Shown here piece after piece: positions 23,268 to 46,727 of a stretch of DNA of 64,000 bases; position 1 is the first letter of the stretch; every line of letters starts with the position of its first letter. The notes under the pieces were generated by a model. It was not told the DNA's origin, made no database searches, and saw nothing but the letters and a program-made list of their open reading frames with translations. Source of the DNA: a virus (lineage: Duplodnaviria; Caudoviricetes); the IMG/VR virus record IMGVR_UViG_3300026549_000051, positions 32,001 to 96,000 of that record; one strand, written 5' to 3'. Made by a program: the position numbers and the translations under genes.

Positions 23268-23744
23268 AGTGTTTATACCCTTTTGCGATTATTAATAACA
23301 TTAAAGCCGTTTATAGTTATCGCATTACCATAAACGGCTTATTGTATTATCAATTTTCACATGAAATTATTTGGCTTATGCTATACGGCGTTTCTATGTC
23401 TATACTTTACCCATAAGCCCATTTTTCTCGTAAAATTATGGTATTAGTCGGTCATCTATTATATGCCTTAGTCTATACCCACTTAAAACGCTAGTGTTAT
23501 GGCTTGCTATTGCCCACTAGTCAAATTGTCAAAATACAGGACGCATAATTCTAGTTATGCTAGCCAGCCCCTTACCCTATACACGATTACATCATTCTTT
23601 TTGATGTTGATAATAGCATCAAAAACATTGTCTGCTTACGCTATCTGTCGGGGTGCTTTGAATAATAAAATCTCAGTTGCATAATTTATAGTTGTCATGC
23701 TTAACTATGTGCGATAAATTAATTAATTAACTTATCATAATTAC

Positions 23745-23773
23745 ATTATAAGCCATATGTGCTAAAAAGTCAA
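23745..23773 (-). promoter_or_regulatory. Sigma70-type early promoter
   Basis: TTGACT-17-TATAAT; a second TG-TATAAT at 23914-23922. Confidence 0.75.
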
Positions 23774-24092
23774 GCATATTTTTAAAAAATGTTATAGTTT
23801 TTTGTTTAAGCCTTGATTAAATTACTTATGCTAATCTAAAAAACTTAATACGCTAATTTAGTTTAACGGCTTTAATGTGCTTAGATAGTTATTTATTAAC
23901 TTATCTTGATTAAATTATAGCACACTTATTCAATGTTGCATAGACTTGATTTTTAAGATTTTTGATGTTCTAATATAGACTATATGCCAAAATTAGATTA
24001 AAACAGTAATAACACATAATATGCAATTTTGAGCCTACTTTTAAAAAAAACGGCTTTACTTACTTAATAATTTATTAATTTTGTCAAGTTTA

Positions 24093-24201
24093 GCATAATC
24101 ATCAATAGCAAAAGCAAAAGCATTAGCAATATAAACGCATGGACGCATACACACATACATGGGGAAGCCGACGCCACCTCCTCCTTTTAATCACTATCAT
24201 C
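24093..24201. repeat. Dispersed ~110-bp non-coding repeat, copy 1
   Basis: Shares GCATAA..CATCA, ACGCA..ACGCA, ATACATrGrGrmAGCCG, ACCTC and ATCACTATCATC with 25064-25174. Confidence 0.7.
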
Positions 24202-39123: not shown

Positions 39124-39366
39124 ATGTCAGATATGCCCGCTAATGATCAAATTACTTTAGTCGAAATTCGTGAGCGCCTTGTCCGCATTGAGACTATTCT
39201 GGAAGAACAAGACTATAAGGCAGTCGAGAAAACAGCTGACGATGCCCTGACTCTTGCTAAAAAAAACGACAAGGCAATCGCAGACCTGCAGAGCTATGTT
39301 AAGTGGTTTGTGATGGCGGTGCTCGGCGCGTTTATTGCGGCCGTTTGTGCCCTTGTGCTAAAATAA
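39124..39366 (+). CDS. XhlA-like coiled-coil + single TM protein
   Basis: EIRERLVRIET..KWFVMAVLGAFIAAVCALV. Confidence 0.65.
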   Translation: MSDMPANDQITLVEIRERLVRIETILEEQDYKAVEKTADDALTLAKKNDKAIADLQSYVKWFVMAVLGAFIAAVCALVLK

Positions 39367-39373
39367 AAACGTA

Positions 39374-39447
39374 GCCGGGAGAATCCGAATAAGTATTGGA
39401 GCCTAGACGTAGGAAAGTAGCGAGTGCAAATCTCGTCGCCCGGCCCC
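39374..39447 (+). ncRNA. tRNA-like RNA with truncated anticodon arm
   Basis: Acceptor GCCGGGAG/CGCCCGGC, D-like TCCG/TGGA, CCTA-GACG-TAGG, T-arm GCGAG-TGCAAAT-CTCGT. Confidence 0.6.
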
Positions 39448-39561
39448 CTGTGATATAATCTAGTTATGCCGCCGATGAAGCTCATCGCCCCAGATAATGG
39501 GAGAGGTAAAGAGTACGGCGGTTTTTTTGATGCCGTGAGATAGATATACTATAATGAGATT

Positions 39562-40218
39562 ATGAATCTTGATGACTTTTCTACTGTTGTCGACGACCGC
39601 AGATATATCAATCCGCAGGTCTCTCTCGATGAGCAGAATGCCTTTATCAATAATCTTCGCTCAACCCAGCAAGCAAGGAACGAAGAGATAGCTACCGATA
39701 CATACAATCTCGGTACGGCAGTTCCTAGCAACCTAGGGGGCCTAGGAGGCTCTGGCAGCTATTTCAATGCTCGCTACCAAACCCCGCAGACTAACGCCGT
39801 GGTGGCAGATTTGCGAGCGGCAGCTCAGGCTCAGGCCCTCAACGATGCCATGAATAACGAACTAGCCCAAGCCCAGCAACGATATAATAATGCTTATAAG
39901 GCCTATCAAAAAAGACACGGCGGCAACAACCCGGCTAATCCGACCAATCCAGACGACCCAGGCAAAGAGGGTGGCACCAAATACGAAGGGAAGGACATCC
40001 CAGACATGGACAGGCCCGATATATCGGACTACATATCGGATGGCTACAATTTTAGCAACATGGGCAATCTATTTGGAGAGTCAAAACAATATCCATTGAC
40101 GGTGGACACCCCTACGACCTCGACATCATATTATGACTACACTAGAGACATCAAAGACCCGCAGCAGAGGTCTAGAGCATGGTTAGATTATCTAGATAGC
40201 ATAGGATATGGAGGTTAA
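39562..40218 (+). CDS. Putative internal virion (ejection) protein
   Basis: Precedes the giant protein; Ala/Gln helical and GGLGGSG segments; leaderless start. Confidence 0.55.
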   Translation: MNLDDFSTVVDDRRYINPQVSLDEQNAFINNLRSTQQARNEEIATDTYNLGTAVPSNLGGLGGSGSYFNARYQTPQTNAVVADLRAAAQAQALNDAMNNELAQAQQRYNNAYKAYQKRHGGNNPANPTNPDDPGKEGGTKYEGKDIPDMDRPDISDYISDGYNFSNMGNLFGESKQYPLTVDTPTTSTSYYDYTRDIKDPQQRSRAWLDYLDSIGYGG

Positions 40219-40220
40219 AA

Positions 40221-43200
40221 ATGGCACTCGTGAATAGTCGATCGACGCTTGAGGGCCCTACTTTAGGCACGAACATAGGAGAGGATGTCCGCAGGCAGAA
40301 CGAGGATAGAAAAAATACTGCATTAGTGAATGAGGGCTTGGTAAAAAGCGGAGCGTCGTTCGACCCAACGACACAAGTCGTCGATAAGGCGGGATATGCA
40401 GAGGCTGTGTCGGAATATAACGCGTGGGAGGCTTCCCGGGGCGATTTGATGAAAGCGGCAACTACCGTGCGGCTTAACCCAGACACGGGCGACGTAGAAG
40501 TGAGTGCCCCTAAAAAGGCTCTCAAGAGTCCACTACTAAAACAGAATTATGACGAAGCACTTAAGGCAATTTCCCTCAATTATAAACTGAATCCAGATTA
40601 CAAGTATGCTTTAATGAAGGACTCTTCGGAAACTAAAACGTCAGAAGAATGGGCTGCCGACATTGAAAGACAGCTAAAGGAAGATGTCCCACGTTTTATT
40701 GCTCGAGAAGAGCAGAAGGACGCGCTTAAAGAGCAAACTGGTCTTGATTTCAGCGACGAAGACTTGACGAAAATGGCCACTGTCGCTCTTGAGTACAATA
40801 ACGAAAACGGAGAGACCGTATTAGTAAAAGACGATACGCGGCAGTCAGTGCCTAAGCAGATCGTCGAAATGGAGGCTTTTGAGCCTATCCGAGAGAGTTA
40901 TGATGAAGAATCTGGCACGTTTGAATGGAAAGACCTAAAGGAAGTATGGGACCGCGATAAAACTTCGGATGAGGCCATCCTAGACGTTTACAAGATTGTC
41001 GATGAATACTTCTCTAAAGGAGAGTTCACGGACCCGACCGAGTACGCCCAGATGTCGGCGTTCTACCAGTTCGCCGAAGGTAAAGACCCGTCAATAAAAT
41101 GGTACAGGGGCGCGGTGCTTACGGCCGGGGAAGTTCTTATGGGGGCGTGGGAAGGGACAGCGAATTTTACGCAGAGCATATTGTCAGCGGCTGACACGGT
41201 GGGCACTCTGGCCGGCAATGCCATTGAAGCGGCGTCCTATGCTATGTCATCGGGGGAGAGCATAGGGGAAGCTTGGCAGGCGGCAAAGGCTACAGACACG
41301 AAGAGCTTTGTCGAACAGTGTAACGAAGATTTAGATAGGTTTATTGCTGACAGACAAAAAGAGCAGAGGGTTCTGAGCGATCAGGCCGCAGCCGCGAACG
41401 CAATAAGCTCGACGCTGACAGCCGTAGGCGCACAGATAGTAGCGTCCATTGTAGTTGGCAACGTGGCGGCGGATGTGGCGAAAGGGGCCGTAGGTGGCGC
41501 TGTTGCAAGGGCGGCGTCCGGCTTTGGCAAAACGGCTAATAGTTTAGCCACTATTACTGCATCTAATATCGCAAGTGGCGCTTTAACCGCAGAGGAATTA
41601 ACTAGTACCGTATATTCTGGCACGGCCGTCTTACTTACTCTTGCAGATGCGGCAACTGCTGCAAAAGCTTTTGCTACTGCGGCATCGGCGGTAAGGGGCA
41701 TAACAATAGCCTCTAAAATCGTAGTAAGCGCAGCTGATGTCATGGGGCAAGCCATCGTGGATGTTACATTAAGTGACAAAAAGCTATTTCGCCAATTGAT
41801 GTTGTCTGGGGACCAGGAGGCAAAAGAATATGCAATTCAGCAGTTAAGCCAGAATGTCATAGGTGAGGTTTCTGGGGTGGCTCTTGGTCGCGCAGTGAAA
41901 GGCCTTGCAAAAACCGAAGTGGGGCGCGTTGTAAACGCCAAGGCATCCACAAGGATTGCGGCGCTAAAGGCATCCATTGGCCAGACTGCCGACAATTTGA
42001 AGATTAGTTGGTTCCATAAAGGGAATGAAGAATGGCTACTAGAAAAAGCCAAACGGCTAGGGGATGAAGCCAAGAAGTCTGAGGGGCAATGGTATGGAAT
42101 ATGGGCGAGCAACCGCGCTGCTAGGGCCGAGCGTCAATTGCGGGCTTATGGCGCAAATCTAATATCGCGACAGGCAAACAGGAAGGTTGGCGAGCTCGCC
42201 GGAACGATTACTGCCGATTCTTGGGACGATTTAGTGGTCACTGCAGACGACGTTTTAAGCAAGTCGAAAATAACTCTTGCTAGAGCAAACAACCTGATAG
42301 ATAGCATTTATAAGGGTGATATTGCGGCCACAGAAGCAGCTATTATGATGGATAATCCAAAGTTAGAGGCTGCGAGAAAGGCCGTAGTAGACGAAATCAC
42401 CAACGTCGTAAAAGCGGAACAGGCGGCGGGCATTGCATCGAAGGCAAAGAAGATTAAGATTGCCGATTCCGGTAACGTTGTGACTGTGATGAGCGAAGAG
42501 ACCAACAGATATGCCAATGCTATGGTCCGCGCCCGTTATGCAGAGGCTTATATCGGTTTGGCTTCAGATGGAAACGAAATCGCGAAAGCAAAGAAAGAAT
42601 TAGAAAGCTTACGCCCAATTATTGAAAAATTTGAGACAGAACAGCCACAGGAATTGATTGACGCCGTTAATAGCTATGAGCGCTCTGTAGCTCGTGCATA
42701 TGAAGAGATTGGCAACACCAGGAAGTCTCTTGGGCTAATTTCCGAAGATGAACTTACTGCCATGAGGGAATCTGGGTTCTTTGCCGAGGGATATATAAGA
42801 CAGCAGCGAATCAAGGGCTGGGAAGAGTACCGTTCGCTCGGTGGGCGCTTACACATCCATGAAGTGCGCGGCACCCAACATTGGAAATGGGGGTCGACCG
42901 ACACTGATTGGCAAGATATGTCCTTGGTGCTCTTTGACGACATAGAAGAAATAGCTCGCCAATATCAGCGGAAGAAGAACATAGAGACTCTGAAATATCT
43001 TGGCATCGAAATAAAGACTGTTGTCGGCGAAGATGGTGTCCGGATTGTAGATGAAGTAAATCCGGTTCGTAAGAAAGCCGCCGCTACTCTTTCTCGGAGT
43101 ACAAAGAATGCGGTCAGAGACTTTGGCGATAAGGTCGAAACGGCTGTTAGTGATAGTTTCGTGGCCCAGAAGACACACACTGTAGTAAACCAAGCAGAAA

Positions 43201-46200
43201 CGAATGCAATTCTGTCAGGGGCGTCATTAGGAGCAGCAGAAACCAAGCCACTGCGCAAGATTACTAGTAGAGAGAGGACGGCTTTTGTAAAGCAGCTTTA
43301 TCCTGAGACCGGGCTAGATGAGCTTGTCCTGCTTAATCAGGCCTCCCCGTTCTCAATAGCAGTCACCGACGATAAGAGTTTTTCTTCGTTCATGGAAGCC
43401 CTAGACTCTAGGACGCGACGATACCTTGAACGGAGCATGGACGAGCAGGCAGGGTACTTATATGAAGCTAGGAAGAAAACGACAATACCGGAAGTTAAGG
43501 CATCGCCATCAGTCGTCGACGGCCAGGCTGCGGCGTTGCCGTCTTCAGGCAAGGCTAACTACACGTTCAGCAATTTAGAACTGCTCATGGCGAACGATCC
43601 AGATTTCTCCACGAAATTGAAACAGCAATATGTCTTAAATAATAAGGAGCTAGCTGAAAGTGCCAGCTTGGAGCGTGCCATCGAGTCCCAGAAGCGCGGC
43701 AAGGCGATGTTTGATGCAAACACTAAATATCAATCTGATATGTTGCGGTTGAACAAGCTTCGCGCGAAATACAACCTTGAAGCTCTCGACGATAAATACA
43801 TCGAATCAATGGACAGTATTATAGATGATATTATTGATGCGAATATTGAGGACAAAAACGTCAACCAGGCATTTTGGGCTTTAGGGGACGCTACGGCTGG
43901 CGGTGATGACCTAATTGAGTATGCGACGTTGCGTTCGCTGAATGCACAGAAGAGAAAAGTAGTAGGGGCGTATCAGGAAGCGGCTGAAAAGACTATGAAC
44001 TCTGCGATTACTGGTGACGTCTTAAAGAAATATGCCAACGACAAAGAAGCTTTAGCGAAGGCGAAACTCAGAATCAAGAAACACGCAAGAGAATACGCAA
44101 AAAATGCCGCGGAGCTTTTTGAAACACGGCTCGTGGACAGATACGGCGAGGTGGCCAGTCGGTTGGCGGCCCAGGGGAGCGACGTAGTTAATCGAAAAGA
44201 CTATTGGAGCATAGTAGACGAGTTAAATAAAGAAATTGCCGGAGCTTCAAAGACGTCTAACGTAATAAAAACTTATGGGGCACACGGGTATGAAGAGTAT
44301 GTCGAGCTTTCTCCTACAATTGCAAGTATGTTCACTATGCGTCCTCGGCCAATCCGTCGCGGTCCATTCGGGGCTATACAACAGGCATTCGTGCGTACTT
44401 TTCGCGCCGGTACAACAGGTGGTTTTATTCCCGGATCTCTCGTTAACCAGGGGTTCCGAGATTTTGGCAATGCAATAGTTGCGGGAAATGCGTGGCACAC
44501 CAGCAGCACAGTCAAAAGAGTATTAACTGAGAACTTTGGCGAAGACTTAGCGGAAAGACTGCAAAATGAATTGCCAGACGTTTTCGAGAGCCTATTAAAA
44601 AAGTCGGATGAAACTGGCAAAAGCGTCGGCGAGCTAGCCGTGCAGATGGAACTGGATAGAGGCGCGGCGAATGTTAGCTCCGAGCTTGAAACACAGATAT
44701 ATCAGTTTGGGCGCGAGGCTAGGATTGCTCGCAATAGCCGAGGCGTATATGACCAAACCGCGTTGGAGAAGATCACGGATGCCGTAGATAACGTGCAAAG
44801 AAAAAGAGAGGCACTTAATACTATGCGCGAGACCTACCTGCGTAACCGAGTGTACAACAATAACCTGCTCGAAGCCCTTAATAGTGGCATGGCGTTAGAC
44901 GATGCTCGCGAAGTAGCGAAGTTCATGCAGGCGGAGGCCACCACGAACTTCGCACGTCGTTCGTATCATTTAGCTAATCTGTCTGAAACAGTCCCATATC
45001 TCGGTGCAGCTATCAATGGCCAAAAATCATTTTGGCGGCTCTTCTCGATTGACCCGGTTGGGATGTCGACCAGAATTGTCGGCGGGTTCGTAGTACCAAT
45101 CATCGCACTCACAGCACATTCTTTATCTACAGAAGAGAACAGAAGAATTTACAAGCAAATTCCAGAATATGCCAAATCGGATTCTTTGACATTCGTGACT
45201 GAGGGACAGGTTTTCTCTATTCCTATCCCGCAGGAGTTAGGCGCCTTTGTGTCGGCGACGCAGCACATGGTTGAGAGTATGGCGGACGCCAGTGACTCTT
45301 CGTTTGCCGAACTGATGGCTAACGACCTTCTTGGGGCATTTCCTATTGACCTAAGTGGTTTTATGGGGCTAGATAGCGATAAAATTACTGAGGGCAATCT
45401 TGCGACAGACCATCTTGTCCCAGGGTTTGTGAAGATGTCTTCGCAATTAATGCCGCCATTAGTCAAATCCGGTTTTATGCTTGCTACTGGCATAGACCCG
45501 TTCACGATGAAGCAGATTGATACTGCACACACGACAACAGACCCGGAGACTGGGGAAAGAGTTGTGATGGATTATACTTCTGGATACGCGGCCAAGGCCA
45601 TAAGCAAGATTTTAGGAGATAAAATATCAGCACAGATGGCGCAGAAGATTTTGTCAAATATCTTTGGCACGGGCGGAATGCTTTATGTCGACGGGTTGGC
45701 TGACTTAGCCACAGCTGCATTTGATAATGAAAAAAGTTTCCTCGAAGATGGAGTTGGCGGTTTCGCGCAGGACTTGCTCGAGAACGGCTTGAACCGGTTA
45801 ACGGTCCCACGCTACGGAGAAGAGAGCAATCTTGCATGGAATCGCGCAGTAGCCCAGCTTTACAAAGAGAAAGCCGCGTTGCTGTCTGACCCTGAATACC
45901 AGGATGACCTGAAGGCGCTCAGTGATAAGACTATCTCTGATAGTGCAAGGAAGAAGATTGAAAGTCGGCTGAAAACTCGCCAACACGAGTACATGCAAAA
46001 AGTGCTCGACGCGGCGAATAATCTCGTCGACAACTATGGCGGAACCTTTGACCGCTACAAGTTTGGAGCTGTCCTTTCGCTAATGAACCTTGATACTGAT
46101 TCCGTTAATGAGAACCCGTATGATGCGTATGCGACCTATCTTACGAAGCAAGAATGGAATCTGAATAAAGCCGCGGCTATTGAGACTATGCAAGAAATGG

Positions 46201-46727
46201 GCTTCCCGTCTACCAATGACCAGTCCCTCTTCGGCTATTACAGTGAGGACCAGGATGGAAATGTCTCGATCCAATATAACTCTCCATTAGCGATTCTGAA
46301 CTATCAGCAGACCGAGCGGCAACAAGATAAGATTATGCTGGCGCTAGTGCAGGGTGTTGGGACAGATAAGAACTTCTATGAACGGCATCAGAGCGTACAG
46401 GAGCAGGTCAACAAAATCCGTGAAGGCAAGACGAAACTCACGAACGACGATTACAACGCAATTGACGCAATTTACGTTAACTGGAACGCTGAAGTCGCGG
46501 CTGATCTTGCGGACATCGTAAGCACTTATGGGGCTGAAGCCGCCATAAATAATAAAGCGGTTCGCGATTATCTTTATTCTTACATTGAAGTCCCTAACTA
46601 CTGGGAGAGGAATAATAAGAACAGATATGTAAGCTTAGGCGACAGAGGCGTAAAGAAGGCAGCATATTATACAAGCTGGCTAAGGTCGATGTTCAAAGTA
46701 AATGACCGGTATAAAGGTCAGTATTAG
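40221..46727 (+). CDS. Giant internal virion / ejection protein with LPD38-like C-terminal region
   Basis: 2168 aa, helical, Ala-rich hydrophobic stretch; PYLGAAING..YKQIPEY..SIPIPQELG pattern. Confidence 0.6.
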   Translation: MALVNSRSTLEGPTLGTNIGEDVRRQNEDRKNTALVNEGLVKSGASFDPTTQVVDKAGYAEAVSEYNAWEASRGDLMKAATTVRLNPDTGDVEVSAPKKALKSPLLKQNYDEALKAISLNYKLNPDYKYALMKDSSETKTSEEWAADIERQLKEDVPRFIAREEQKDALKEQTGLDFSDEDLTKMATVALEYNNENGETVLVKDDTRQSVPKQIVEMEAFEPIRESYDEESGTFEWKDLKEVWDRDKTSDEAILDVYKIVDEYFSKGEFTDPTEYAQMSAFYQFAEGKDPSIKWYRGAVLTAGEVLMGAWEGTANFTQSILSAADTVGTLAGNAIEAASYAMSSGESIGEAWQAAKATDTKSFVEQCNEDLDRFIADRQKEQRVLSDQAAAANAISSTLTAVGAQIVASIVVGNVAADVAKGAVGGAVARAASGFGKTANSLATITASNIASGALTAEELTSTVYSGTAVLLTLADAATAAKAFATAASAVRGITIASKIVVSAADVMGQAIVDVTLSDKKLFRQLMLSGDQEAKEYAIQQLSQNVIGEVSGVALGRAVKGLAKTEVGRVVNAKASTRIAALKASIGQTADNLKISWFHKGNEEWLLEKAKRLGDEAKKSEGQWYGIWASNRAARAERQLRAYGANLISRQANRKVGELAGTITADSWDDLVVTADDVLSKSKITLARANNLIDSIYKGDIAATEAAIMMDNPKLEAARKAVVDEITNVVKAEQAAGIASKAKKIKIADSGNVVTVMSEETNRYANAMVRARYAEAYIGLASDGNEIAKAKKELESLRPIIEKFETEQPQELIDAVNSYERSVARAYEEIGNTRKSLGLISEDELTAMRESGFFAEGYIRQQRIKGWEEYRSLGGRLHIHEVRGTQHWKWGSTDTDWQDMSLVLFDDIEEIARQYQRKKNIETLKYLGIEIKTVVGEDGVRIVDEVNPVRKKAAATLSRSTKNAVRDFGDKVETAVSDSFVAQKTHTVVNQAETNAILSGASLGAAETKPLRKITSRERTAFVKQLYPETGLDELVLLNQASPFSIAVTDDKSFSSFMEALDSRTRRYLERSMDEQAGYLYEARKKTTIPEVKASPSVVDGQAAALPSSGKANYTFSNLELLMANDPDFSTKLKQQYVLNNKELAESASLERAIESQKRGKAMFDANTKYQSDMLRLNKLRAKYNLEALDDKYIESMDSIIDDIIDANIEDKNVNQAFWALGDATAGGDDLIEYATLRSLNAQKRKVVGAYQEAAEKTMNSAITGDVLKKYANDKEALAKAKLRIKKHAREYAKNAAELFETRLVDRYGEVASRLAAQGSDVVNRKDYWSIVDELNKEIAGASKTSNVIKTYGAHGYEEYVELSPTIASMFTMRPRPIRRGPFGAIQQAFVRTFRAGTTGGFIPGSLVNQGFRDFGNAIVAGNAWHTSSTVKRVLTENFGEDLAERLQNELPDVFESLLKKSDETGKSVGELAVQMELDRGAANVSSELETQIYQFGREARIARNSRGVYDQTALEKITDAVDNVQRKREALNTMRETYLRNRVYNNNLLEALNSGMALDDAREVAKFMQAEATTNFARRSYHLANLSETVPYLGAAINGQKSFWRLFSIDPVGMSTRIVGGFVVPIIALTAHSLSTEENRRIYKQIPEYAKSDSLTFVTEGQVFSIPIPQELGAFVSATQHMVESMADASDSSFAELMANDLLGAFPIDLSGFMGLDSDKITEGNLATDHLVPGFVKMSSQLMPPLVKSGFMLATGIDPFTMKQIDTAHTTTDPETGERVVMDYTSGYAAKAISKILGDKISAQMAQKILSNIFGTGGMLYVDGLADLATAAFDNEKSFLEDGVGGFAQDLLENGLNRLTVPRYGEESNLAWNRAVAQLYKEKAALLSDPEYQDDLKALSDKTISDSARKKIESRLKTRQHEYMQKVLDAANNLVDNYGGTFDRYKFGAVLSLMNLDTDSVNENPYDAYATYLTKQEWNLNKAAAIETMQEMGFPSTNDQSLFGYYSEDQDGNVSIQYNSPLAILNYQQTERQQDKIMLALVQGVGTDKNFYERHQSVQEQVNKIREGKTKLTNDDYNAIDAIYVNWNAEVAADLADIVSTYGAEAAINNKAVRDYLYSYIEVPNYWERNNKNRYVSLGDRGVKKAAYYTSWLRSMFKVNDRYKGQY

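What the first reader, a model, noticed from the sequence alone, without database searches (positions are those of the whole stretch)
39374..39447. tRNA-shaped RNA lacking a functional anticodon loop
Seen: a cloverleaf with an acceptor stem (one A-G mismatch and an extra G-C pair at the discriminator position), a D-like arm, and a canonical 5-bp/7-nt T-arm (loop TGCAAAT). The anticodon arm is only CCTA-GACG-TAGG and there is no encoded CCA. It cannot decode. Inference: a tRNA mimic, such as a decoy for tRNA-targeting defence toxins or an RNase P/Z processing signal at the end of the portal operon. A decayed tRNA is possible, but the stems are intact.
Basis: partly seen in the sequence, partly recalled or inferred. 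Interest (0 to 1): 0.7.

Follow-up and report, generated by a model that had tools for sequence, protein, structure and literature searches.

The report
Conserved anticodon-less tRNA-like phage RNA
A 71-base tRNA-shaped RNA with only a four-base stub where the anticodon loop should be is kept by selection in uncultivated cattle-gut phages, twice in the same apparent transcription unit as real tRNA genes. It is therefore a genuine new tRNA look-alike rather than a decayed tRNA, but what it does is still unproven.

Summary
The cloverleaf at 39374-39444 (+) is real. ARAGORN and Rfam do not recognise it. On thermodynamics alone it is unremarkable (z = -2.2).

Comparison with other sequences sets it apart. 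I found 14 distinct versions in phage contigs from independent assemblies (those with sample labels are cattle gut, manure or dung), in three genomic settings:
- after an XhlA-type holin gene, as here;
- at the 3' end of a ~190-nt conserved non-coding RNA in an unrelated 32-kb phage;
- in a tRNA gene row, before an odd 100-nt tRNA-like RNA and tRNA-Cys. One further contig has it 15 nt before tRNA-Met.

Six base pairs show compensatory changes, and 91% of cells pair against about 40% when the partners are slid. Every version keeps the 4-bp/GACG stub and the UGCAAAU loop, so this is not a recent deletion. The D-like helix is lost in the commonest variant. Five near-complete relatives lack the element, so it is accessory and mobile.

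Best reading (about 0.45): a tRNA-like handle for RNase P, RNase Z and the CCA-adding enzyme that punctuates phage transcripts, like plant mitochondrial t-elements. A trans-acting mimic or decoy remains open (0.25). No RNA-end data were obtainable. This scan has noted analogous anticodon-less mimics in other phages.

The parts
39374..39444 (+). Anticodon-less tRNA-like element (whole four-way junction); covariance model R1 match is 39374-39448
   Evidence: MFE fold; CM R1 79.6 bits, E 7.5e-22; only copy in the 111-kb record
39374..39379 (+). 5' strand of the closing (acceptor-like) stem, GCCGGG, followed by the conserved AGAA junction
   Evidence: Pairs with 39439-39444. Five pairs are invariant and the sixth is broken in 7 of 13 distinct sequences
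39384..39400 (+). D-like arm, 5 bp with 7-nt loop ATAAGTA (no GG)
   Evidence: Two pairs have compensatory changes, but only 75% of cells pair: the commonest variant keeps 3 of 5 pairs. Not recovered by RNAalifold
39402..39413 (+). Stub in place of the anticodon arm: 4 bp with the invariant 4-nt loop GACG
   Evidence: 100% of cells paired, 2 of 4 pairs with compensatory changes (A-U/G-C and C-G/U-A)
39420..39436 (+). T-like arm: 5 bp with 7-nt loop TGCAAAT (U54, C56, A58 and G53-C61 equivalents present; G at position 55)
   Evidence: 98.6% of cells paired, 2 pairs with compensatory changes, 1 pair G-U/G-C, loop invariant
39439..39444 (+). 3' strand of the closing stem, CCCGGC; followed by CCCC, with no encoded CCA
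39124..39366 (+). XhlA-type holin gene; its stop codon lies 8 nt before the element. Holin plus element travel together in relatives
   Evidence: Pfam XhlA 1.5e-10, PHROG 689 holin; same 8-nt spacing in L014, L017-19, L043, L044, L057
39451..39459 (+). Extended -10 promoter-like motif TGATATAAT, 6 nt after the element
   Evidence: Sequence. The same TGnTATAAT motif heads each small-RNA unit in L031, L043 and L057. Inferred, not tested
39466..39529 (+). Small-RNA-like unit: branched hairpin closed by gccgccg/cggcgg plus a T7 run (terminator). The 25-codon ORF inside it is not conserved
   Evidence: The module recurs with variation in L015, L043 and other contigs. L057 has a different sRNA at the same place
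39527..39564 (+). Promoter of the next gene (TTGATG-17-TATAAT), 6 nt before ATG 39562 of the 218-aa protein (leaderless-type layout)
   Evidence: Consensus scan 10 of 12. Relatives that lack the element keep this promoter directly after the holin gene

Best explanation
The element is a gene-like module for a small, structured, anticodon-less tRNA-like RNA, a family not in Rfam. It is carried as an accessory, mobile part by uncultivated phages found mostly in cattle-gut and manure samples. Shown: it is conserved with compensatory base changes. It always lies on the strand of its neighbouring genes. It occurs in three unrelated settings, twice in the same apparent transcription unit as genuine tRNA genes. 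Inferred mechanism: the RNA keeps what tRNA-maturation enzymes read. That is an acceptor-like stem stacked on a 5-bp T-stem, and a 7-nt T-loop that can form the elbow with the single conserved G of the D-like loop. It dispenses with the anticodon arm, which those enzymes do not need. RNase P would cut at its 5' G and RNase Z or 3' trimming behind the closing stem. The element would thus be excised from read-through transcripts. That would separate the holin mRNA (or, elsewhere, an upstream non-coding RNA) from what follows, and release a stable ~72-nt RNA. Functionally this matches plant mitochondrial t-elements or MALAT1/mascRNA. Whether the excised RNA has a further job is open.
For: (1) The cloverleaf is the MFE and centroid structure.
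(2) The family has 18 matches and 14 distinct sequences, with CM scores of 80-102 bits.
(3) Covariation: 91.1% of cells pair against 37-48% when partners are slid by 1-3 columns. Six pairs have changes on both sides. 0 of 500 shuffles reach the observed covariation score. RNAalifold independently recovers the closing stem, the stub and the T-like arm.
(4) G-U pairs (e.g. pair 49-65 is G-U in 8 sequences and G-C in 6) make the fold specific to the sense strand. In all three settings the element is co-oriented with the flanking genes or tRNAs.
(5) tRNA context. In L031, L026 and L041 one apparent TGCTATAAT-promoted unit reads: 85-nt hairpin RNA, element, 100-nt tRNA-like RNA, tRNA-Cys (57.7 bits). 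In L015 tRNA-Met starts 15 nt after the element. The leader motif TGTGCCATGTT precedes the element in one setting and tRNA-Met in the other.
(6) It abuts the upstream RNA by 4-8 nt with no terminator between, in all settings.
(7) It is not coding: the variants differ by three 1-nt indels within 75 nt.
(8) Precedent: non-canonical tRNA-like t-elements direct RNase P and RNase Z cuts that make mRNA ends (PMC1920247, read).
Against: No RNA evidence exists for transcription, ends or CCA addition. Only assembled contigs were available, and these cannot show ends. The Rfam tRNA model gives no hit even at E<=10 on 301 nt. The T-loop has G at position 55, and the D-like helix is degenerate in the commonest variant. 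The closing stem has only 5-6 pairs, with mismatches at the inner positions. The loops GACG and UGCAAAU and the AGAA junction are invariant, which a mere cutting signal would not require. Part of that invariance, however, is ascertainment, because my search patterns fixed those motifs. The family is shallow (88% mean column identity), so some conservation may reflect recent spread. The gene after the element already has its own promoter, so a processing site is not obviously needed.
Confidence: 0.45

Rival explanations
1. Trans-acting tRNA mimic. The excised RNA itself is the product. It would bind a host or phage protein that recognises the tRNA body, elbow or acceptor end. Candidates are a toxin of a tRNA-targeting defence system, a modification or CCA-adding enzyme, or an elongation factor. 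It would titrate or redirect that protein. Having no anticodon loop, it cannot be cut by anticodon nucleases.
For: Loops GACG and UGCAAAU and the junction AGAA are invariant while stems change with compensation. Distribution is sporadic and accessory: five near-complete relatives lack it, and an unrelated 32-kb phage has it. This resembles phage tRNA and counter-defence genes. It lies in islands of other small accessory RNA genes.
Against: No partner is identified and no defence or enzyme gene is linked. Invariance is partly imposed by the search patterns. Variable columns are not significantly rarer in unpaired than in paired positions (14 of 40 against 5 of 33, p = 0.07, for the sequences found through neighbouring proteins). 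Expression is unproven.
Confidence: 0.25
2. A structured RNA whose tRNA shape is incidental. Possibilities include a cis-acting polymerase-modifying (antitermination-type) element, an RNA-stability element, or a 3' domain of larger RNAs such as the ~190-nt RNA of the 32-kb phage.
For: In the second setting it is the 3' domain of a conserved composite RNA with covarying hairpins and a 20-nt invariant single strand, just upstream of a gene. Here it lies upstream of a terminator. There is no tRNA-model score.
Against: The flanking partners differ completely among the three settings, so only the 71-nt module is shared. Its T-arm geometry (5 bp/7 nt, U..A at loop positions 1 and 5, closing G-C) and the 7-nt strand after the T-stem match tRNA. 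It sits where tRNA genes sit.
Confidence: 0.15
3. A DNA-level site (attachment or recombination site, origin, packaging signal) whose hairpins form in single-stranded DNA.
For: It is mobile between genome positions and phage types. The GC-rich closing stem is invariant.
Against: G-U (G-T) pairs make the fold strand-specific and always on the transcribed strand. It lies inside a tRNA gene row. No integrase or transposase lies next to it in the loci annotated. No real match was found in 185,579 representative bacterial genomes: the 3 hits are chance matches in coding sequence. It is therefore not a copy of a host tRNA or tmRNA gene end.
Confidence: 0.05
4. A decayed tRNA pseudogene or a chance fold.
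For: Weak single-sequence statistics (z -2.16). ARAGORN finds it only among hundreds of noise calls.
Against: The same 4-bp/4-nt stub occurs in all 14 distinct versions from independent samples, with compensatory changes in it. CM E-values run from 1e-22 to 1e-29 in three settings.
Confidence: 0.03

Closest known systems
t-elements of plant mitochondria (Forner et al. 2007, PMC1920247; read)
   Same: Non-canonical tRNA-like cloverleaves embedded between genes in long transcripts. They are thought, and partly shown, to direct RNase P and RNase Z cuts that form mRNA 5' and 3' ends and to release a small stable RNA that can receive non-encoded C/A. The position here, 8 nt after a stop codon, fits that role.
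   Different: t-elements keep the canonical GGTTCRANYCC T-arm motif; this element has TGCAAAT (G at 55). It is in phages, not organelles. It is a mobile, sequence-conserved family rather than scattered tRNA relics. Cleavage is untested here.
mascRNA / MEN-beta tRNA-like elements of vertebrate MALAT1 and NEAT1 (from my own knowledge)
   Same: A tRNA-like module at the 3' end of a non-coding RNA, cut off by RNase P to make the upstream RNA's 3' end. In two settings here the element directly follows a conserved structured non-coding RNA.
   Different: Eukaryotic nuclear system. No sequence relation: an Rfam scan of the whole library, which should include those families, gave no hit.
YrlA (bacterial and mycobacteriophage Y RNA-like A; PMC4201824 listed, not read; details from my own knowledge)
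   Same: A non-decoding tRNA mimic, also found in phages, that keeps the D/T elbow.
   Different: As I recall, in YrlA the acceptor-like stem is closed and the RNA ends leave through the anticodon-like stem into a Ro60-binding helix. Here the ends leave through the acceptor-like stem and the anticodon arm is a stub. No Rfam hit of any family. No Ro60/Rsr gene was looked for.
Canonical phage-encoded tRNA genes (Rfam RF00005)
   Same: Same genomic niche (tRNA rows, accessory and sporadic), same overall four-arm layout, same T-arm geometry, and 7 nt after the T-stem in most variants.
   Different: No anticodon loop, no D-loop GG, G55, no encoded CCA although the neighbouring phage tRNAs encode CCA. 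Not detected by ARAGORN or RF00005.
Phage non-tRNA substrates of RNase P (P1/P7 C4 antisense RNA, phi80 M3 RNA; from my own knowledge, not checked here)
   Same: Phage small RNAs matured by host RNase P through a tRNA-like acceptor/T-stem stack.
   Different: Unrelated sequences and shapes; those are not full cloverleaves.

Membership tests
Canonical tRNA (Rfam RF00005 / ARAGORN definition) | Anticodon arm of 5 bp with a 7-nt loop carrying an anticodon | tested here: not met
   4 bp with the 4-nt loop GACG in all 14 distinct family members
Canonical tRNA (Rfam RF00005 / ARAGORN definition) | Recognition by tRNA detectors or the covariance model | tested here: not met
   ARAGORN default and -ps80 find nothing; the locus appears only at -ps60 among 515 calls. 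No RF00005 hit at E<=10 on 301 nt, while neighbouring real tRNAs score 33-58 bits
Canonical tRNA (Rfam RF00005 / ARAGORN definition) | T-arm: 5-bp stem closed by G53-C61, 7-nt loop T54-Psi55-C56-R57-A58 | tested here: inconclusive
   Stem, loop length, and U54, C56, A57, A58 and G53-C61 equivalents are present and conserved, but position 55 is G in every member
Canonical tRNA (Rfam RF00005 / ARAGORN definition) | D-arm with the G18-G19 loop motif; 7-bp acceptor stem plus discriminator and CCA | tested here: not met
   The D-like loop has a single G. The helix keeps only 3 of 5 pairs in the commonest variant. The closing stem has 5-6 pairs. The 3' tail is CCCC, TCCC or GCAA
tRNA-like processing signals (t-elements, mascRNA type) | tRNA-like fold embedded in a longer transcript, directly abutting another RNA's end | tested here: met
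   8 nt after the holin stop codon; 4-5 nt after upstream structured RNAs; no terminator between. That a continuous transcript exists is inferred from sequence only
tRNA-like processing signals (t-elements, mascRNA type) | Cleavage by RNase P at the 5' border and RNase Z at the 3' border; non-encoded C/A addition | not testable with these tools
   Only assembled contigs of public runs could be laid, and these cannot show ends
YrlA / bacterial Y RNA | Match to the Rfam YrlA model; ends exiting through a Ro60-binding helix | tested here: not met
   No Rfam match of any family at the element in four settings. The ends exit through the acceptor-like stem
tmRNA tRNA-like domain | Detection as tmRNA; tag reading frame | tested here: not met
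   ARAGORN tmRNA search negative in the window and in all loci
Intrinsic terminator | GC-rich hairpin followed directly by a U-run | tested here: not met
   The closing stem is followed by CCCCTGTG. The first T-run is 78 nt downstream, at 39522-39528

The most novel reading that the evidence does not exclude
Phages carry a mobile family of anticodon-less tRNA mimics. These would be made on purpose as small RNAs and act in trans. For example, they could soak up or redirect host factors that read the tRNA body or acceptor end, such as toxins of tRNA-directed defence systems or tRNA-maturation enzymes. Together with the odd 100-nt tRNA-like RNA and the rows of small RNA genes beside it, they would form an 'RNA arsenal' island in an uncultivated phage lineage.
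Probability: 0.22. Interest if true: 0.85.

Novelty: new variant of a known kind. Interest (0 to 1): 0.62.

Why it matters
tRNA mimicry is known from plant RNA viruses, tmRNA, Y RNAs and mascRNA. My two full-text searches turned up no report of phage RNAs that keep the tRNA body but lack the anticodon. If host tRNA-trimming enzymes cut this element out, phages would be using tRNA punctuation, as organelles do, to shape their messages. If it acts in trans, it bears on the current contest between phage tRNAs and tRNA-targeting bacterial defences. In either case the family gives a short, well-defined RNA with clear, cheap tests: in vitro RNase P/Z cleavage and end mapping. It also shows that tRNA detectors miss a class of conserved phage RNA genes.

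Tried and rejected
1. BLAST of the region against 50,697 phage records found no match. The 737-aa neighbour gave no match and TerL only 22% identity to isolates, so there is no cultured relative or host.
2. The search for related loci with the 218-aa and 2168-aa neighbours in viral contigs found nothing. The 737-aa protein gave 11 relatives, none with the element at this site.
3. An exact 28-nt pattern in viral contigs found nothing.
4. The pattern scan of bacterial genomes gave only three chance hits in coding DNA. Four of the 15 metagenome hits (L025, L030, L033, L035) were also chance.
5. Public runs: 20 hold part of the stretch, but all are served as assembled contigs. The two RNA-Seq runs carry a related variant at about 90-95% likeness and give no ends, strand or level, so expression is neither shown nor excluded.
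6. A test that unpaired core positions vary less than paired ones was not significant (p = 0.07-0.22), so I do not claim it.
7. I looked by eye for a pseudoknot between the GACG loop and a CGUC elsewhere, and for an alternative D-region/variable-region helix. Each was seen in one variant only and was dropped.
8. A tRNA-His-like G-1:C73 reading of the acceptor holds only for this variant (8 nt after the T-stem); the others have 7 nt.
9. The minus-strand ORF 39294-39485 and the 25-codon ORF at 39467 are rejected as genes: 1-nt indels in the first, and no conserved ATG in the second.

Full report
WHAT IS IN THE SEQUENCE

The stretch 39374-39444 on the + strand lies in a 195-nt gap. Upstream is an 80-aa XhlA-type holin gene (39124-39366; Pfam XhlA 1.5e-10, PHROG holin 1.1e-11). 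Downstream is a 218-aa gene of unknown family (ATG at 39562).

It has:
- a 6-bp GC closing stem;
- a 5-bp/7-nt D-like arm;
- a 4-bp arm capped by GACG;
- a 5-bp/7-nt T-like arm with loop UGCAAAU.

The tail is CCCC, not CCA.

Taken alone the fold is not remarkable. The z-score is -2.16, and 8 of 200 shuffles fold as well. ARAGORN finds no tRNA in the window or in the whole 111-kb record. It reports this locus only at -ps60, together with 515 noise calls. Rfam gives nothing at gathering thresholds, and not even a weak tRNA hit at E<=10 on 301 nt.

IS IT CONSERVED?

The closest relatives in IMG/VR were found through the 737-aa neighbour. They go straight from the holin stop to the promoter of the 218-aa gene in about 35 nt. 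The other half of this record also lacks the element. The 195 nt are therefore an insertion relative to those relatives.

Closer relatives came from the 218-aa protein and the contigs that encode its homologues. These do carry the insertion (L014, L017-L020, L043, L044, L057). They include a second sequence variant.

I derived a pattern from the two variants. It found more copies in viral and metagenome contigs. The three hits in 185,579 bacterial genomes are chance matches in coding DNA, and so are four of the metagenome hits.

A covariance model (R1) matches 18 stretches at 80-102 bits, plus five later ones. These give 14 distinct sequences.

COVARIATION

On the model alignment, 91.1% of cells form standard pairs. 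When partners are slid by 1-3 columns, only 37-48% do. Six pairs have changes on both sides, and 0 of 500 shuffles reach the observed covariation score.

Helix by helix:
- The stub is 100% paired, with two compensatory pairs.
- The T-like stem is 98.6% paired, with two compensatory pairs and one G-U/G-C alternation.
- The closing stem has five invariant pairs.
- The D-like helix has two compensatory pairs but keeps only 3 of 5 pairs in the commonest variant. RNAalifold omits it while recovering the other three helices on its own.

The loops GACG and UGCAAAU and the junction AGAA never vary. Some of that invariance was imposed by my search patterns. The formal comparison of variability in unpaired against paired columns is not significant.

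Variants differ by three single-base indels within 75 nt, so nothing is encoded on either strand.

It comes out in favour of a selected, anticodon-less RNA.

THREE GENOMIC SETTINGS

Setting 1 is the one in this window. The element sits 8 nt after the holin stop. It is followed after 6 nt by an extended -10 motif (TGATATAAT), then a small hairpin RNA with a terminator, then the next gene's promoter. The block holin-element-promoter stays together even where the downstream small RNA or genes differ (L043, L044, L057).

Setting 2 is in an unrelated, complete 32-kb phage with an Erf-type recombinase, and in similar contigs. There the element is the 3' domain of a ~190-nt conserved non-coding RNA. 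That RNA has covarying hairpins and a 20-nt invariant single strand, and lies just upstream of a gene.

Setting 3 is in a relative of this phage (the same UViG as L005) and three other contigs. There, by sequence (no RNA data), a TGCTATAAT promoter appears to drive one unit: an 85-nt hairpin RNA, the element, an odd 100-nt tRNA-like RNA, and a bona fide tRNA-Cys.

In contig L015 the element is followed 15 nt later by tRNA-Met. The leader motif TGTGCCATGTT precedes the element in setting 3 and precedes tRNA-Met in L015.

In every setting the element is on the strand of its neighbours. Its G-U pairs would be C-A on the other strand. This argues for RNA rather than a DNA site.

Five near-complete relatives have no copy. 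The element is therefore dispensable and moves as a module, as phage tRNA genes do.

HOW IT PROBABLY WORKS

What is kept is the part of a tRNA that RNase P, RNase Z and the CCA-adding enzyme read. This is established knowledge of those enzymes, not tested here:
- a stem carrying the two ends, stacked on a 5-bp T-stem;
- a 7-nt T-loop with the U...A pair at loop positions 1 and 5, and C56;
- one conserved G in the D-like loop that could make the elbow pair.

What is lost is the anticodon arm, which those enzymes do not need.

The element always abuts the preceding RNA by 4-8 nt, with no terminator between. My best reading is that it is cut out of read-through transcripts by the host tRNA-maturation machinery. 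That would define the 3' end of the holin mRNA (or of the upstream non-coding RNA) and the 5' end of what follows, and would leave a stable ~72-nt RNA.

This is the logic of plant mitochondrial t-elements, where non-canonical cloverleaves direct RNase P and RNase Z cuts at mRNA ends (PMC1920247). It is also the logic of MALAT1/mascRNA. I give this reading about 0.45. That a conserved structured RNA exists at all, I put at about 0.9.

WHY NOT HIGHER

No RNA ends could be examined. The 20 public runs holding part of the stretch are served as assembled contigs. The two RNA-Seq runs carry only a 90-95% similar variant.

The invariant loops suggest sequence-specific recognition beyond a cutting signal. 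The sporadic, accessory distribution in islands of small RNA genes fits a trans-acting mimic or decoy equally well (0.25).

Less likely readings:
- a shape-coincident cis element or domain of larger RNAs (0.15);
- a DNA-level site (0.05);
- a pseudogene or chance fold (0.03).

COMPARISON WITH WHAT IS KNOWN

The element is not a tRNA. Three defining features were tested and not met: the anticodon arm, detection by tRNA models, and the D-loop GG with an encoded CCA. It is not YrlA or tmRNA (no model hit, different topology), and it is not a terminator.

It works most like a t-element, but it differs in several ways. It is a sequence-conserved mobile family. It has G at T-loop position 55. It is in phages.

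The phage lineage itself has no cultured relative: TerL is 22% identical to isolates at best.

Notes of this scan describe analogous anticodon-less tRNA mimics between genes of other phages. I used them only as a lead to the t-element paper, which I then read. They are unchecked AI notes and do not count as support.

I rate the element a new variant of a known kind (tRNA-like mimics and processing signals), with interest 0.62.

Noticed in passing
whole record G000 (window = 32001-96000 of it); junction near window 23500-24100: The 111,102-bp 'complete' virus record is two related ~55.5-kb phage genomes joined head to tail. They are colinear at an offset of about 56 kb, with 65-91% nucleotide identity. 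The true relatives are 55-60 kb, and two of them have terminal repeats. This is probably an assembly chimera or a concatenation, so 'one genome' statistics on this record are unsafe.
   Followed up: partly
L031 4032-4131 (also L026, L032, L041): A second non-canonical tRNA-like RNA of about 100 nt lies right after the element. It has a 7-bp acceptor stem, a canonical TTCGATT T-arm and a small D-arm with GG. Its 'anticodon' arm has about 10 bp with an 8-nt loop, and it has an extra arm. ARAGORN and Rfam do not call it. tRNA-Cys follows.
   Followed up: partly
window 39451-39529; L031 3400-4330; L043 1320-1470; L057 1325-1470: Rows of small-RNA-like units, each with an extended -10 (TGnTATAAT) directly after the previous terminator's T-run, 60-130 nt of structured RNA, and a terminator. 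One recurring type begins ..GCGCTAGGGG / GGCCTAGGGG. No Rfam match. A first-reader note on this genome (e1-5929470) proposes that a similar unit is antisense to ribosome-binding sites; I did not test that.
   Followed up: no
window 39550-39564 and about 10 other gene starts (e.g. window 14, 5633, 6219, 47485, 52129, 63995): Many genes have TATAAT exactly 6 nt before the ATG, with the spacer usually ending in GT. A T-run often lies about 35 nt upstream. This layout predicts leaderless or near-leaderless mRNAs. Relatives L002-L005 share it.
   Followed up: partly
L021 2812-2925 (minus strand), L028, L029, L034, L036, L042: About 110 nt upstream of the element in the 32-kb phage type is a conserved structured RNA. 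It has a covarying hairpin, an invariant 20-nt single strand (TTCACGCATAGAACACGCTC) and a long covarying hairpin. Function unknown.
   Followed up: partly
L015 88-163: The tRNA-Met(CAT) next to the element scores only 32.8 bits. It has an A1.C72 mismatch at the top of the acceptor stem, a feature reminiscent of bacterial initiator tRNA. It lacks the three G-C pairs of the initiator anticodon stem.
   Followed up: no
window 40221-46727: A 2168-aa protein with an LPD38 domain (Pfam 1.1e-14) follows the 218-aa gene. It is conserved in relatives, and its size and position suggest a virion or ejected polyvalent protein.
   Followed up: no
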